From: Eledone cirrhosa
Taxonomy: Eukaryota
Direction of reading: 5' to 3'
Assembly (NCBI GenBank): GCA_964016885.1
Contig: OZ024750.1
Span: 23,250,001-23,314,000 of the forward strand
Length of the DNA: 64,000 nt
Part shown: positions 3,141 through 57,855 of the stretch, piece by piece
How the letters are laid out: each line of letters starts with the position of its first letter
Position numbering within the stretch: the first letter of the stretch is position 1
The notes under the pieces: generated by a model
Told to the model about the DNA's origin: nothing
What the model saw: the letters and a program-made list of their open reading frames with translations, nothing else
Database searches by the model: none
Position numbers and translations under genes: made by a program

Positions 3141-4069
3141 TATGTAGCACTAGTTATGTACTAGATGGTGTGGACTATAACTTTCTACACGTGTCATAGA
3201 ACGTGTCATAGAACGTGTCATAGAACGTGTCATAGATCTATGACACGTTTCTCACTTTGTGACCCCATCTTTCCTCTATTCCTCCTTCATTTTGAATTGT
3301 CATTCAGTAACTTTTTTTTTACTATTATAGTTATACAGCGCTAATTACTAAAACCATTTATTTAATTGCTTGTATTAAATTACCTAATCAATTACTTTAT
3401 TAATGGTAAACAAATGAAAAAAGAAATTCTGATTTCAATGGATCATAAAATTTATTTAGCACTAGCACGAACACAGCGTGATTCATAATAGAGGTGAATA
3501 TGTAGTCATATACGATATGTTTATGAATAATAAAACTAATGTCTCGCTATAAACATTTTATGTGGTGATCATAGCACAGCTGTCTCTGTATATAAACTAT
3601 AGCTTATTCCTGTCTCAGTACTCAGTGAGTAAACGTCTCCGATAATGGTTAAATATCCTGAAACATGTCTGGCGTTCTCACACGACAACTGAGATCACTG
3701 TGACATGACTGCAGCTTAAAATGTTCATAGTGAGCCATATGTATGTTTATTATACATAAACATATCGTATATGGCTTCGTAAACACCTCTATTATAAAAC
3801 TTATGTATTAGTTAATGCCCAAATAGTTTGTAAGGTTGTAAGGACAGACAAATGCCCTTTATTAAATGCTATCAAACAAACAAACAAACGGTTAATGACA
3901 AATTCCTCGCAATTCAAAACTTCTATTTGATATAATGCCTACGTTGACCTGCTTGCAGAGAAACTAAACTAAAAACATTGAGACGTGTGCGTGTGGAGGG
4001 GGTCAACCCATCCCAGTCGCAGAAAGCAAGAACTGTTGTGTGTCAAAGCAAATATGAAATAGAAATATG

Positions 4070-4386
4070 TTTGCCTTCTTCGCCCACTTATTCCTGAGAG
4101 GGTCATGGGGGAGGAGTTCTCAAACACTCCCCCCCAGCGGGTCCTGTCAGAATCAACCGTCTCCAGCGGATCCGGTTGGATCCCGAAGCCTGACCAGCCA
4201 AGCTCATTGATGTTATCCAACCATCTTGCTCGAGGTCTACCCCTGGGTTTCTTACTTGTTGGTTTTGCCCCTAGAATCTGTCTAGCGATTCTTTCCTGAG
4301 ATATTCTAACCACATGCCCATAGTATCGGAGCTGTGATCTCTCAATTCGGAGAAGTAGCGGATCTACATGGAGTGACTCTCTGATC
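4070..4386 (-). mobile_element. 5'-truncated RTE-clade LINE, 3' end of ORF
   Basis: Translates IRESLHVDPLLLRIERSQLRYYGHVVRISQERIARQILGAKPTSKKPRGRPRARWLD, the typical RTE C-terminal (W/Y)xGHVxR..RGRPRxRWxD motif. Confidence 0.9.
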
Positions 4387-12860: not shown

Positions 12861-13143
12861 TAAATTAACCGATATAAAAGACACAGAAGCGAAAACCAAC
12901 CAAACAGTGAGTGTGTTCTGTTATTAATTCTGGCAATAGTATTACTCAAATATGACCCTCCCCAAGTATATATATATATATAAAGCGATGAAATACCAAT
13001 GAAGGTTGGAAGATCACTGATGAAGGACTAACTTTATTCATATATATATATATATATATATAACGGATTGTTTCTAATTAATATGATAACTCTAGGGTTA
13101 TAATAATAACGAATCAGTTATATATTTTATTATATATATATGT

Positions 13144-15986: not shown

Positions 15987-17183
15987 AGTGTGTACAGATT
16001 TTAATGAATATTGTTGTACAACAATAACAAAAGCAGCAGCAATAACAGCATTAATAATAACCAGGCGCAGTTGACAGTATACCTGTAACGAAATCTAAGC
16101 AGAGAGATTTGGATTTTTGTTCATCAGTTGTCAATTTGCATTGATCGTCTGCAAAGCCGCATTGTTCTCAGAACCACTACACCAGACTTTCGATGCGTGC
16201 AGCGAGAACTACTGTCACCCATTGATTTGGCAATATCGCAACTCATTTCTACAGCTGAGTAAACTGGAGCAACGTGAAATAAAGTGTCTTGCTCAAGGCC
16301 GCAACACATCACCCGGTCCGAAAATCGAACTCACAACCGTTCGATTGCAAGCCCAATGTTTTAACCACTAAGCCATGTGTCTTCACTAAACAACTTAAAC
16401 ATCACGCAAACTCTTAGATAATTTTTCTGTGACTATTGCTTGTTTTCACAATGTTATCACAATAACTTCGATGCAAGTTATTCATTAATAAAATTATTTA
16501 AAGTAGCGGCAACTCTTGTTATTGATCATTCCATGATGGCTATGGCAACCATACATCTCAATTCATTGAGACACAAGACAGCGCTTTATATTGGAAAGAC
16601 CAACTTAGAAATTCACCCATGAAGCCAATGGTAACTGCTATAAAACTCCTACCACGCTACAATGAACAACGGACAAATCTGATCAACAATACAACATAGT
16701 TGACCTACAGACATCAAATTCTATACTCGTTACATATCCACCTGGAAAGAGATTAACGTGATGATGATAGTGATGATGATTATCATCACCATCATCACCA
16801 TCATCATCATCATCATCATCATCACGACGATGACGACATGCAGAGAGAAGTGAGCAGCTGTTGCTAAGTAGCTATATTTCTATAGTCTATAGTTATGTAA
16901 CAATATTAGTAGTGATGGAATGTGATGTGTTGGTTGGTAAGAGATGATGGTGATGATGATGGTGATGGGGGGGGGGGGGGGGGTTGATGATGATGATGAT
17001 GATGATGCCATACAGTTGTATGTTTTTCACAACAAATACTTATTCTTTTACTCTCTTATATTTTTACTTGCTTCAGTCATTATACCCCGGTAATTATTGT
17101 TTCAAGTTCAGTACTTATTTTATCGATCGCTCTTCTTACGGGACATAAACAAACAGTAAACATAAACACTGGTAAACACTGAT

Positions 17184-17245
<62 letters not shown>

Positions 17246-17645
17246 GCATGTTGATTGCTACTTCTTGTCAGAAGAGTGCCATCCCTTCATTGAATGCTTT
17301 CTACATTGGGTAATAGAATAAACTCTATAGATAATGAACACAACCACAAGGATATGGTCCGAACGTGGAAGAGCCGAACTCCCACTGTCATCGCCTCCAT
17401 CTCTCTGTATGGTGAGCAAATGGGGTCCCACGTGCTATTGCACGATCATGTGTACGCAGGTCACTTTTCAGACCACCTTTTGTTTGGCAAACGCGTTCAC
17501 AGATGTTACACTAGAACTGTCCATCTCCTGGCACTACCGGCTGGGTTTTGTCTTCATGTATTTTGCCATGTCAGGTCAGTCCAGCTGACTTGCAAATTAA
17601 GCCACACTCATTACAAACGTGTCGCGGAAGGCGTGGCGGTATATA

Positions 17646-17993
17646 CAGGGTGGTCCGAAAATCTTGTCACCCCTTGTCACATATTGTTTTAACTTTCATT
17701 ATTTTTTGTTTTAATAATATATTATATAATATCATTAATTATAATATATAATGATAATAATATAATTTCTACTTCAGAGCTCCTACAGTTTGGATGAGAG
17801 GCTGCTTGCAAATATCTTCACACATGATCGTGTGCATTCTGGCAAAATCATGGAGGGTGTGCGACATGACGTCACTGCAAAATTCGGCAAACCAGCTCCT
17901 CCGAAGAGGACGATGCTGCGATGGGAACATAAACTGTTTCTCATTACATTTTGATAGGGGGGGGGGGGTGACAAGACTTTCAGACCCACCCTG
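17646..17993 (+). mobile_element. Internally deleted Tc1/mariner-type element with TIRs, TA TSD and transposase N-terminal remnant
   Basis: TA-CAGGGTGGTCCGAAAATCTTGTCACCCC ... GGGGTGACAAGACTTTCAGACCCACCCTG-TA; 17784-17942 encodes YSLDERLLANIFTHDRVHSGKIMEGVRHDVTAKFGKPAPPKRTMLRWEHKLF (DUF4817-like HTH). Confidence 0.85.
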
Positions 17994-18655
17994 TACCTCT
18001 CACAAGTGGCTCGATTTCGCCCTGGCTCATGGATGGATTGTATATTACCTTTGCTGGTTTTCTGCTTGTTTCCGTCAACCAAATTTCACTCGCAATGCAT
18101 TGCTCAACCTGAACCTATAATAGAAGACATTTCATCATGGTGCCGCATAGTAGGACTAAACCACAAGGTGGTAAAACGAACTCTTTAACTACACAGTTAT
18201 ACCGGCGCCTATACTTCATAGTATTTCAACAGCAAATGGGGATATTCCTCATTTTTTACTTTTTTCTCATCTTTTTATTACTTTCATTTTTCTATATCTG
18301 TTCATGGAGCCATTATTTAATACATGATGATAAATATATGAAGAAAAATAAAACGGAAGCGTTCAGTATTAAAATAGACATCTGAACTATTGGCTTTCTA
18401 GCGTTAACTAAAGGAAGCAAATGAGAAGCAATGAGATCGATATAATCGACCTCAGAAAGTATTGACAATGATGTAACAGCATGCATGGCCTTAGACCATG
18501 ATTGAAACTAGAAAACAAAATAAAAAAAGGAAACACACACACACACATTCTGGAGAGAAGACAAACTTACAGAAACATTTTACTCTGCTTCCATATATTA
18601 AGTGCTTATTCACTTAATGTTTGAAAGTTTTAAGTTCATGGTATTTTAAACGTCC

Positions 18656-18693
<38 letters not shown>

Positions 18694-18794
18694 ATACATA
18701 TATATATGTATATATATATATGTGTGTGTGTGTGTATATATGTATATATATATGTGTGTGTATATATATGTATATATATGTGTATATATATACG

Positions 18795-18830
<36 letters not shown>

Positions 18831-18842
18831 TATGTGTGTACA

Positions 18843-18874
<32 letters not shown>

Positions 18875-18878
18875 AACG

Positions 18879-18910
<32 letters not shown>

Positions 18911-19019
18911 TGCTTATCGGTATCACTGGAGTGGAACGAAATTGTCGGAAGGTGCCGAAATCGTTATGGCTTCAACTGATGAAGGAAATATCCCACAGCG
19001 CAAGCTGTGGGATACGCAT

Positions 19020-19083
<64 letters not shown>

Positions 19084-19153
19084 AGATATATATATATATG
19101 TATATATATATATATGTGTGTGTATATATATATATATGTATATATATAATATA

Positions 19154-19200
<47 letters not shown>

Positions 19201-19240
19201 GTGTGTGTGTGTGTATACATATATATGTATATATATATAA

Positions 19241-19294
<54 letters not shown>

Positions 19295-19576
19295 GTATAT
19301 ATATATATATGTATATATTTGTACGTATATATATGTATATATATATATATATATGTGTGTATATATATATATGTGTGTCTGTGTGTGTGCGCGCGTGTGT
19401 GTGCATGTATATATGCTTATATATATGTTTTTGTATAAGTGAGTAAAGTGGAGGCAATCGAGTTGCTGTTATTATTGTTTAACCCCAGGTCCTGCCTGAC
19501 TGAGCAGACATATGATCAGATTTCCGGCTATAAATATGCCTGTTTATATATTTATTATTGCTATTTTTTAGGGATA

Positions 19577-19653
<77 letters not shown>

Positions 19654-19735
19654 TAAGAAAATAGTCAGGACCCCGACGGCTGAGCTCCGGCCGTTTCGAC
19701 AGCTAGTTATATAAAAATATATCTATATCTATCTA

Positions 19736-19834
<99 letters not shown>

Positions 19835-19851
19835 TATATATATATACACAC

Positions 19852-19892
<41 letters not shown>

Positions 19893-20083
19893 CACACACA
19901 CACACACACATATATATACACACACACACATATATATATACACACACACACACACACATATATATACACACACACACACACACATATATATATACACACA
20001 CACATATATATATACACACACACACACACATATATATATACACACACACACATATATATATACACACACACACATATATATAT

Positions 20084-20147
<64 letters not shown>

Positions 20148-20217
20148 TATATATATATATATATATATATATACTATATATATATATATATATATATATA
20201 CTATATATATATATATA

Positions 20218-20278
<61 letters not shown>

Positions 20279-20613
20279 CGTCGGCGTCGTATTGTATGTA
20301 TTTGGTATGTGAATGGAAGTTGATCAAAATAGATAAACGTATATAAATCGAAACAACACAGATAAATACATAGATATATAAATAATAATGTGTTGTGTCT
20401 GTAGGTCGGTAGGTTTGGGTGGGTTTTTGGTGGAGGTGATGTTCAACAGATTGAGATAACGGATTGCCGACGGAAGAATTAGAAGTGGTGTTTATACAGG
20501 ACTTAAGCTTTACAATCGCTACATAAGTCTTGTGCTAAATTAGATGATATTTGCACTCTGGTAAGAGTACAAAACTTGTAGAGAAAATAGTTTCATATAT
20601 ATATATATATATA

Positions 20614-20708
<95 letters not shown>

Positions 20709-20809
20709 GAGAAAGATTTGAATTTAGGCAAATCGACAATTAAATGTTGAAGTAGATGGATAAGAAACCAATACTCAGATAGGTAGGTAAATAGATAAAA
20801 AACAGACAG

Positions 20810-20908
<99 letters not shown>

Positions 20909-21024
20909 TTGTCTGTCTGTTTTTTTATCTGTTTACCTACCTATCTGAGTATTGGTTTCTTATCCATCTACTTAAACATACAATACATACAATATTACCA
21001 AATACATACAATACGACGCCGACG

Positions 21025-21085
<61 letters not shown>

Positions 21086-21177
21086 AGTTCGGAAACAGAA
21101 AACAAAAAACAGACAAAGGCAGGAGTAAATGTTACAAATATTATTAATTTCAAGCCTGATGAGAGTGGGGTGTGTGG

Positions 21178-36456: not shown

Positions 36457-36490
<34 letters not shown>

Positions 36491-36785
36491 ATTGGCTTCT
36501 ACAGGACTAGAACTGTTTCATTCGGGAGAAATCATCAGGAAGCCGACTGTCCAAGTAATATGGTGGTATTTATACCTTTTCTGGTGGTAGGAGAGGGTGG
36601 GGATTCAGATGGGTGGAGGTCATTGGTTGATGGATTTAAAGAAAAGGGAATTCTTTAAAAACTATATTTAAGATAACAAAGGCAGAAAAAATTCAAGATG
36701 GTTTTCTATATTAAATATTTATACTCTGCTATGTATTGAGTACCTTACTTACTGTGGTTACCCCCGATTGAACCCGTGATAAACT

Positions 36786-43082: not shown

Positions 43083-43270
43083 ATTTGGGACCCCGACGGC
43101 TGAGCTCCGGCCGTTTCAACAGCAAGATCCGAACGTTCGGATCTAGTTGTTGAAAAGGCCGGAGCTCAGCCGAAGGGGTCCCAAATTTTTCATATTACCC
43201 ACTCTACTACCTCAAGTATCGAGTACTCTGGTGAGTAATGGTCTAACTGGTTTTTACCGCCTCAATTCTA
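43083..43270. mobile_element. Hairpin mini-element, copy 2 (palindrome 43083-43186 plus tail into (TA)n)
   Basis: Homologous to 49962-50137; single arm also at 19668-19703. Confidence 0.8.
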
Positions 43271-43289
43271 ATATATATATAAGATATCG

Positions 43290-43938
43290 GTGTCACGACA
43301 AAATGCCCAGTCCACACTGTAAAGTGGTTGTGTAGGTGTTACGACAAAATGCCCAGTCCTCACTGTAAAGTTGTCGTGTAGGTGACACGACAAAATGCCC
43401 AGTCCACACTGTAAAGTGGTCGTGTAGGTGTTACGACAAAATGCCCAGTCCACACTGTAAAGTGGTCGTGTAGGTGTTACGACAAAAAACACCCAGTCCA
43501 CACTGTAAAGTGGTTGTGTAGGTGTTACGACAAAATGCCCAGTCCACACTGTAAAGTGTTCGTGTAGGTGTTACGACAAAATGCCCAGTCCACACTGTAA
43601 AGTGGTCGTGTAGGTGTTACGACAAAAAACACCCAGTCCACACTGTAAAGTGGTCGTGTAGGTGTTACGACAAAATGCCCAGCCCACACTGTAAAGTTGT
43701 CGTGTGGGTGTTACGACAAAAAGCACCCAGCCCACACTGTAAAGTGGTCGTGTAGGTGTTACGACAAAAAGCCCAGCCCACACTGTAAAGTGGTCGTGTA
43801 GGTGTTACGACAAAATGCCCAGCCCACACTGTAAAGTGGTTGTGTGGGTGTTACGACAAAAAGCACCCAGTCCACACTGTAAAGTGGTCGTGTAGGGGGT
43901 TACGACAAAAAGCACCCAACCTACACTGTAAAGTGGTT
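43290..43938. repeat. 46-48-bp minisatellite, about 14 copies
   Basis: GTGTTACGACAAAATGCCCAGTCCACACTGTAAAGTGGTCGTGTAG. Confidence 0.95.
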
Positions 43939-44086
43939 GGCATTAGCAAGGGCTTCCACCCGTAGAAAACCAGCCAGAAACAGTCCTATGAGCGAGACAC
44001 GGTCACCCGACCCAACCTGCCTCTAAATGGGACAAACCCCTCTGTTCCATGCTAGCGTGGAAGATAGACGTTAATTGATGATGATG
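43930..44086 (+). mobile_element. 3' end of an RTE-tail SINE
   Basis: GTGGTTGGCATTAGCAAGGGC..CCATGCTAGCGTGGAAGATAGACGTTAAT(TGA)n tail. Confidence 0.7.
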
Positions 44087-49492: not shown

Positions 49493-49720
49493 ATAGTAGA
49501 ATACTGGAGGATTATATCCGTAGTAGTAGAGCACTCAGTCCATGGGTAGAAGTTTGGTAGAAGTAGTTCCACAGCAGTTAGTTCACCATACCGAGAGTTC
49601 GGCCTGAGTGAAGTTGTACGGAAAAAGGTTTTTCCGTACAACTTCACTCAGACCGAGCTGAAGATCCGCATAAGGTGAAACGTGTGTTCTCAGTATGGTG
49701 AACTAACTGTTGTGGAACTA

Positions 49721-49723
<3 letters not shown>
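49493..49723 (+). ncRNA. Rod-like inverted repeat containing a minimal hammerhead-like core
   Basis: Outer arms 49561-49596 / 49688-49723, inner perfect 23-bp hairpin; CTGAAGA 49658-49664, GAAAC 49677-49681, GTT 49686-49688. Confidence 0.55.
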
Positions 49724-49799
<76 letters not shown>

Positions 49800-49918
49800 G
49801 GAAACTTAGTAAAATCGAATCTCTGGCGGTTTGCAAGCAAATTCGGCGTACTTATATGAAATGATGAGTTAGCAAAGCACTCAATAAGTTAGGTCCTATA
49901 TATATATATGTATATATG

Positions 49919-49961
<43 letters not shown>

Positions 49962-49965
<4 letters not shown>

Positions 49966-50134
49966 AAGTATGACCCCGACGGCAGAGCTCAAGCCGTTTC
50001 GACGGTCCAGAAATAGCCGTCGAAACGGCTTGAGCTCTGCCGTCGGGGTCATACTTTTTCCTATTTCCCACTCTACTACTCTAAGTATTGAGTACTCTGG
50101 TGCGTTATGGTCCATCTAGTTCCTTACCACAATT

Positions 50135-50137
<3 letters not shown>
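49962..50137. mobile_element. Hairpin mini-element, copy 1, in (TA)n
   Basis: Perfect 44-bp arms 49962-50005 / 50017-50060, 11-nt loop, 77-nt tail. Confidence 0.85.
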
Positions 50138-57446: not shown

Positions 57447-57855
57447 AGAGATGACCCCTTAGCCTTTGTCAAGGCAGAATTCTAGGAGAAGGAAAACTCT
57501 GATATAACACCTGCAACCTTGATGGTATCCAATGATGTTGACTTGTTCTTCTTTTTGGTAAATATCATCTTGGTTAAGAGAGTGGGACTGGCTTTGTGCA
57601 GTGCCTTTGCTCACTATAAAAGCTTCACGGCACAGGCATTGGTTTATATCTGGAGATCTCTCTGCACTTGTCATCACAGGGTACCAAGGGCCCAGCACTA
57701 TGTGTCAATAATTGTCACAAGTGTAGTGTTTGTACCGGAGTTTTCAAGTCGCTGGCTGGACTAAAAAGTCACACTCGTTCAGCGCATCGGTAGGGGTTCT
57801 CCTACATGGATATAAAGTAGTGGCCGTACTCGAAAACGAGTTGGCAGCCACCATG
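57447..57855 (+). mobile_element. 5'-truncated bipartite RTE element with intact C2H2 zinc-finger frame
   Basis: 57713-57793 reads CHKCSVCTGVFKSLAGLKSHTRSAHR*; (ATGT)n tail. Confidence 0.9.

What the first reader, a model, noticed from the sequence alone, without database searches (positions are those of the whole stretch)
49962..50137. Hairpin mini-element family with compensatory changes between copies
Seen: a perfect 44-bp hairpin plus a 77-nt asymmetric tail in (TA)n. The copy at 43083-43270 has the same layout and a homologous tail, but both arms change together (GGCAGAGCTCAAGCC/GGCTTGAGCTCTGCC versus GGCTGAGCTCCGGCC/GGCCGGAGCTCAGCC; TCGAC/GTCGA versus TCAAC/GTTGA) and the apex differs. 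A lone arm lies at 19668-19703. A one-sided tail and no TSD do not fit an ordinary MITE. Inference: the second arm is re-made at each insertion by foldback synthesis (PLE-style inverted pLTR; the arm retains CGAAAC, a possible hammerhead half), or structure is under selection. It would yield long dsRNA, a potential ADAR or Dicer substrate in a coleoid.
Basis: partly seen in the sequence, partly recalled or inferred. Interest (0 to 1): 0.75.

Follow-up and report, generated by a model that had tools for sequence, protein, structure and literature searches.

The report
Truncated Penelope-like retroelement hairpin insertion
The hairpin with a one-sided tail is a real and very abundant repeat, and it is most likely the ordinary 'inverted copy plus tail' stub left by a Penelope-like jumping gene that inserts into TA repeats, not a hairpin RNA kept by selection.

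Summary
Confirmed: 44-bp perfect hairpin, 11-nt loop, 77-nt tail in (TA)n; two relatives in the window. Each arm reads as the 3' half of a type I hammerhead; three of the five differences between copies over that core lie in its loop III. The second copy's arms mismatch at 5 of 52 pairs, none compensated, so the hairpin is decaying. Same-species runs give 16,806-20,750 matching records each, two preferred 3' ends followed by (TA)n about 73 nt apart, and many different inversion junctions. This is the published Penelope-like (PLE) pattern: 5'-truncated copy, head-to-head inverted copy, optional tail. The (TA)n target and a bulged tail hairpin resemble Hydra-clade PLEs. Not shown: the RT-endonuclease ORF, the CUGANGA half, expression, host taxon. 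Both arms are likely made at each insertion; two-ended priming versus snap-back is unresolved. The scan noted the same pattern before in shark-type windows. One oddity: all 5 arms in the window stop 6-18 nt before GAAA. Verdict: new family of a known kind, low interest.

The parts
49962..50005 (-). E1 inverted, tailless copy; outer end lies at the family's internal end site
   Evidence: 0 of 44 mismatches to the right arm; (TA)n follows position 50064 in 3,801 of 20,073 X21 reads and 310 of 18,308 X1 contigs
50006..50016 (+). E1 apex: 11 nt present on the sense copy only; template sequence shared by other copies
   Evidence: about 3,100 reads deep at 50006-50010 against about 13,000 in the arm in X21
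50017..50060 (+). E1 sense arm: predicted hammerhead 3' half (GAAA 50022-25, stem III 50026-29 with 50039-42, palindromic loop III 50030-38, GUC 50042-44, stem I strand 50045-50)
   Evidence: descriptor scan; no Rfam hammerhead match for this half
50061..50137 (+). E1 tail with a bulged hairpin motif at 50070-50095, ending in (TA)n
   Evidence: molecules end at 50134 and (TA)n follows in 1,974 X21 reads
43083..43270 (+). E2: older copy of another subfamily; 52-pair hairpin folded without a loop, 5 uncompensated mismatches, homologous tail
19656..19708 (-). E3: single tailless copy between TA-rich runs, same loop III as E2
49493..49722 (-). H3: unrelated family with the same layout in the same (TA)n tract; its inverted arm holds a complete hammerhead-like motif at 49658-49688 (+), which the other arm lacks through a 29-nt gap
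   Evidence: Rfam Hammerhead_1 at 49652-49694, 14.8 bits, E 0.67, below the gathering score of 34

Best explanation
The feature is a copy of an abundant repeat with two preferred 3' ends and varied inversion junctions, and it is likely the heavily 5'-truncated, dead-on-arrival 3' end of a hammerhead-bearing, TA-targeting Penelope-like retroelement whose two arms were probably made at the moment of insertion. Inferred steps: the element's GIY-YIG endonuclease nicks (TA)n on both strands; its RT starts one cDNA at the distal site (tail included) and a second at an internal site about 73 nt upstream (no tail); both stop early, near hammerhead stem II; the two are joined head to head. Using only the internal site gives a lone arm such as E3. 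Arms match within a copy because they come from one template, and then decay neutrally. Hydra clade is the likeliest home (about 0.6). On how the second arm is made: two-ended priming about 0.55, snap-back on the new cDNA with trimming about 0.35.
For: Two 3' ends followed by (TA)n: behind 50064 in 3,801 of 20,073 (X21) and 3,610 of 20,750 (X22) reads; behind 50131 in 1,974 and 2,354. 12 of the 15 joints shown (of 40) join opposite strands, at 12 different position pairs; E1's own junction is not among them; loose ends upstream of 50010/50014 agree only 0.41-0.45 against 0.63-0.81 for the 3' ends. Hammerhead 3' half in 4 of 5 arms, the fifth a decayed version. Three other window elements pair a full hammerhead-like motif with a similar tail or layout (49658, 36538, 47999). 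Published PLE layout: inverted 5'-truncated copy, optional tail, head-to-head palindromic junctions (PMC8557442; PMC3846280); two RT start sites and extension on both strands in vitro (PMC11167929); opposite-strand hammerhead pairs (PMC4209133). Hydra-clade families: 26 of 27 listed as (TA)n inserters, one from Octopus; 2 of 6 Hydra consensus ends show the same bulged tail hairpin by eye.
Against: No RT or GIY-YIG ORF was linked to this family; 0 of 150 scanned ORFs (of 309 candidates) hit such a domain. The CUGANGA half was seen in 0 of 5 arms and in none of the loose-end consensus rows shown (577 rows not shown). Rfam gives no hammerhead for the E1 half and only sub-threshold matches for 2 of 3 neighbours. 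The half-motif occurs 1.4 times per shuffled window. The tail (73-77 nt) is longer than the 30-40 nt in print, and loop III (9 nt) longer than the 1-3 nt of the Hydra table. No exact 11-12 nt match to the Naiad, Chlamys or Hydra supplement as held. The reads were laid on the sense arm and tail only, so joints at 50006 sit on the reference edge.
Confidence: 0.85

Rival explanations
1. A short non-autonomous PLE parasite: its RNA itself begins at about hammerhead stem II, so copies are near full length rather than truncated; the inversion is still made at insertion.
For: 5 of 5 arms end 6-18 nt upstream of GAAA, while the other families run 37-250 nt past CUGANGA; X21 minus-mate depth falls from 9,347 at 50017 to 2,196 at 50015. 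Non-autonomous PLE derivatives are described.
Against: The drop is much weaker in plus-mate reads (2,451 to 1,802) and gradual in contigs; RAD data sample few loci; subfamily divergence or an RT pause at stem II would look the same. Overlaps with the best explanation in mechanism.
Confidence: 0.2
2. A DNA element (MITE, fold-back or Helentron-type) copied whole, hairpin and tail together.
For: Long inverted repeat, TA flanks, high copy number; both hairpins in the window have arms of one subfamily.
Against: The repeats are not terminal on both sides; the apex differs in 2 of 2 hairpins and opposite-strand joints fall at 12 position pairs; a tailless single arm exists; two alternative 3' ends. 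Arms of 44-52 bp are not the short asymmetric repeats described for the second Helitron type.
Confidence: 0.07
3. The hairpin is a structured RNA kept by selection as a Dicer or ADAR substrate.
For: Very stable predicted fold (z -20.7); both arms share subfamily variants.
Against: E2 arms differ at 5 of 52 pairs with no compensation; 4 of the 5 changes sit on one arm when E3 is the outgroup. Rfam miRNA hits are far below gathering scores. Incidental editing of read-through transcripts is not excluded.
Confidence: 0.03

Closest known systems
Endonuclease-positive Penelope-like element insertion units (PMC8557442 Fig. 2 legend; PMC3846280)
   Same: 5' truncation, head-to-head inverted copy, tail on one end, palindromic junction, no visible TSD in microsatellite
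   Different: Only about 130 nt of the 3' end; tail 73-77 nt against 30-40; ORF not seen
Hydra clade PLEs (Hydra-2_Amil, Hydra-2_Ajap, Hydra-1_Obim, Penelope-13_HM; PMC8557442 supplement)
   Same: (TA)n target; type I hammerhead near the 3' end; TA-rich site about 20-30 nt after cleavage; stem, 2-nt bulge, stem hairpin in the tail (by eye); inverted 5' copy noted for Penelope-13_HM
   Different: No exact motif match; loop III 9 nt against 1-3 nt; Hydra-1_Obim has a different 3' end; clade is defined by protein motifs not testable here
Poseidon PAc of Anolis (PMC11167929)
   Same: Two start sites that bound a tail; AT-rich target; both strands extended
   Different: In vitro system of another clade; inversion formation not shown in the parts read
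Non-LTR retrozymes (bioRxiv 10.64898/2026.07.22.740005)
   Same: Short, non-coding, type I hammerhead, PLE-related
   Different: Retrozymes are head-to-tail tandem units with complete ribozymes; these copies are inverted and hold half

Membership tests
Penelope-like elements (EN+) | Single ORF with PLE RT and GIY-YIG endonuclease | not testable with these tools
   No genome held; none in 150 of 309 window ORFs scanned; not expected in a 130-nt stub
Penelope-like elements (EN+) | Variable 5' truncation with fixed 3' end | tested here: met
   3' ends pile at 50131-50134; upstream loose ends heterogeneous
Penelope-like elements (EN+) | Head-to-head inverted 5'-truncated copy | tested here: met
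   E1, E2, H3; 12 of 15 shown joints on opposite strands
Penelope-like elements (EN+) | Optional tail on one end | tested here: met
   Second end at 50064 followed by (TA)n; tailless E3; length 73-77 nt exceeds the published 30-40
Penelope-like elements (EN+) | Complete type I hammerhead in the pLTR | tested here: inconclusive
   3' half only; CUGANGA in 0 of 5 arms; no Rfam hit
Penelope-like elements (EN+) | Partial tandem forming a direct pLTR | tested here: inconclusive
Hydra clade | (TA)n insertion preference | tested here: met
   shared with Naiad and Neptune, so not diagnostic
Hydra clade | RWK, DKT, CxCX5C motifs; no CCHH | not testable with these tools
   No protein
MITE (TIR element) | Inverted repeats at both termini with constant interior | tested here: not met
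   One-sided tail, variable apex, two 3' ends
MITE (TIR element) | Target-site duplication | tested here: inconclusive
   Cannot be read inside (TA)n
Helentron / Helitron2 | Short asymmetric repeats and small hairpins at fixed ends | tested here: not met
   44-52 bp arms and variable junctions against the description
Non-LTR retrozyme | Tandem units each with a complete hammerhead | tested here: not met
   0 of 3 window copies; tandem arrays elsewhere in the genome not tested

The most novel reading that the evidence does not exclude
A very high-copy, non-autonomous PLE parasite of about 130 nt that has dropped the 5' half of its hammerhead and keeps only what the PLE enzyme needs: the internal start site and a bulged tail hairpin conserved across Hydra-clade PLEs from coral to sea cucumber. 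Its thousands of junctions would decide between two-ended priming and snap-back and name the RT-binding RNA element.
Probability: 0.15. Interest if true: 0.55.

Novelty: new member of a known kind. Interest (0 to 1): 0.24.

Why it matters
As a class it is known. Its value is as material: how PLEs make inverted copies and tails is still open in the papers read, and an abundant family with short readable junctions could test it. The tail hairpin is a candidate cis-element. Such stubs also scatter perfect inverted repeats that could be edited if read through, which is untested.

Tried and rejected
No whole genome held. Metagenome pattern scan: 92 loci, all 50% G+C or more, 0 of 92 with the loop palindrome or an upstream CUGANGA; chance. 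Viral and prokaryote genome scans: 0 hits. Rfam on the whole window: top 150 of 308 rows shown, nearly all miRNA models on microsatellites, below gathering. Pfam on 150 of 309 ORFs: no RT or GIY-YIG. No RNA holder listed. Four exact motifs absent from the PMC8557442 supplement, whose reading was cut. Tail folds are no more stable than shuffles (z -1.05 to -0.02), so the tail hairpin rests on the repeated pattern, not on energy. e1-866195 shared 3 of 69 words and was set aside as chance. Summed contig depth was not used as copy number. A description of this family in print was not found in the searches; Repbase and Dfam could not be searched.

Full report
Observation. E1 is as described: arms 49962-50005 and 50017-50060 match at 44 of 44 positions, an 11-nt loop, a 77-nt tail, (TA)n on both sides. 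It folds at -91.6 kcal/mol and 0 of 200 shuffles match it. E2 aligns at 72% over 164 columns and E3 at 83-86%. A profile of the five arms found nothing else in the window. E2 has 5 mismatches in 52 pairs, 4 unpaired and 1 G-U. Over the 34-nt core E1's arms differ at 0 sites, E2's at 4, E1 against E2-left at 5, and E2-left against E3 at 1. So the changes between E2's arms are mostly on one arm and uncompensated.

Anatomy. Read toward the tail, each arm is GAAA, a 4-bp G+C stem, a 9-nt loop with a 6-nt palindrome, GUC, then GGGGUC: the 3' half of a type I hammerhead. Four of the 5 such sites in the window are these arms; the right arm of E2 is a decayed version. The motif alone is weak: shuffles give 1.4 sites per window, maximum 5 in 60, and the four arms are one sequence. 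By my arithmetic the chance that a given 130-nt repeat holds one is about 0.003. Three of the five core differences between E1 and E2-left fall in loop III. Palindromic loop III and hammerhead pairs on opposite strands are described for PLEs (PMC4209133, parts 1-2 of 4 read). The CUGANGA half is absent from all 5 arms, and Rfam does not score the half.

Family-wide data. No genome was held, so the sense arm and tail (50006-50137) were given to four same-species runs, at most 3 samples and 2 studies, X1 and X2 being one sample. 18,308 and 16,806 contigs and 20,073 and 20,750 reads were laid. (TA)n follows position 50064 in 3,801 and 3,610 reads and in 310 and 278 contigs, and follows a second end behind 50131 in 1,974 and 2,354 reads. 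The E2/E3 loop variant appears as a loose-end consensus in 1,228 and 1,264 reads, so it is a subfamily. Of 15 joints shown (25 hidden), 12 join opposite strands at 12 position pairs. E1's own junction is not among them, although its loop sequence is covered by about a quarter of the reads. Upstream loose ends agree at only 0.41-0.45. Caveats: RAD reads sample few loci, 6 of the 12 joints start at the reference edge, and 577 loose-end rows were hidden.

Neighbours. The same (TA)n tract holds H3 (49493-49722), an unrelated sequence with the same layout and a complete hammerhead-like motif (Rfam Hammerhead_1 E 0.67, below gathering). Similar motifs lie at 36538 (Hammerhead_3 E 1.3) and 47999 (no Rfam hit). 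A tail descriptor (4-bp stem, 2-nt bulge, inner stem) hits 4 places: E1, E2, 36723 and 47895; shuffles average 0.45 and 1 of 60 reached 4. The descriptor was written after seeing E1, two published ends and the fuzzy hits, so this count is post hoc. Still, the two other hits each lie within 250 nt of a full hammerhead-like motif, and three of the four sit 42-45 nt before (TA)n.

Mechanism. Shown: two 3' ends, TA target, varied head-to-head junctions, uncompensated decay. Inferred: PLE enzyme, RNA template, both arms made at insertion. The in vitro Anolis PLE cuts AT-rich DNA, extends both strands and starts at two sites that bound the tail (PMC11167929, parts 1-2 of 4); this predicts a tailed copy facing a tailless one, and lone tailless copies such as E3. 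Snap-back must also explain why the inverted arm stops at a fixed internal site. For it: self-priming was proposed from junction palindromes (PMC3846280, passages), E2 folds without a loop, and both hairpins have arms of one variant. Of 6 opposite-strand joints off the reference edge, 2 have 5 shared letters and 4 have 0-1, which does not decide. E3 could also be a hairpin that lost an arm.

Comparison. The layout is the standard complex PLE insertion (PMC8557442: passages, sections 6 and 11, supplement parts 1, 2, 52, 53 of 56 and three searches; PMC8969392 passages). Hydra-clade families are listed as (TA)n inserters in 26 of 27 rows, with hammerheads near the 3' end and one Octopus family. 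By eye 2 of 6 Hydra consensus ends carry the same bulged hairpin, and a third a looser form; I did not see this noted in the parts read. Differences: longer tail, longer loop III, no exact motif match. Naiads share the target but lack canonical hammerheads. Retrozymes are tandem with whole ribozymes (bioRxiv 10.64898/2026.07.22.740005, part 1 of 5 and passages; its supplements were not seen). Helentron papers were seen as a search listing only. The supplement of PMC8557442 was cut in reading, so a match in an unread part is not excluded. The host taxon was not tested. Two earlier scan notes report the same pattern in shark-type windows; my reading was recorded before seeing them, and one pointed me to the Arkhipova paper.

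Verdict. Real, abundant, most likely a new family of a known kind. Interest 0.24. What remains odd is that all 5 arms stop 6-18 nt before GAAA while the other families in the window run 37-250 nt past CUGANGA; a short non-autonomous template or an RT pause at stem II would explain it.

Noticed in passing
window 49797-49896 and 50189 to about 50330, minus strand: Two more short pieces in the same (TA)n tract carry the tail-like motif and end in (TA)n; the tract looks like a sink for four insertions.
   Followed up: partly
window 36473-36785: Hydra-style hammerhead-like motif facing left on the minus strand and a tail motif plus (TA)n on the plus strand, with no inverted overlap: possibly a long tailless copy joined to a tail-only copy, which snap-back could not make.
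   Followed up: partly
window 47999-47874, minus strand: Hammerhead-like motif with a 30-nt stem-loop II followed 55 nt later by the tail motif, then another repeat.
   Followed up: partly
window 49562-49722: In H3 the tail-bearing arm lacks 29 nt of the ribozyme core while the inverted arm keeps it.
   Followed up: partly
window 43290-43940: Minisatellite of about 46 nt units directly after E2's (TA)n.
   Followed up: no
window 3190-3251: Four 12-nt tandem units ending in a perfect 26-nt palindrome.
   Followed up: no
window 20744-20979: 70-nt inverted repeat, 96% identical, around a (TA)n run.
   Followed up: no
window 3969-4385, minus strand: 138-aa frame that looks like the end of a LINE-type RT (recalled likeness); no Pfam hit.
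   Followed up: partly
window 57620-57790: Single C2H2 zinc-finger match, E 6e-4, below the Pfam cut-off.
   Followed up: no
window 12983-13039, 18903-19043, 21072-21177: Short pieces between microsatellites holding CUGAUGA without a matching GAAA half.
   Followed up: no
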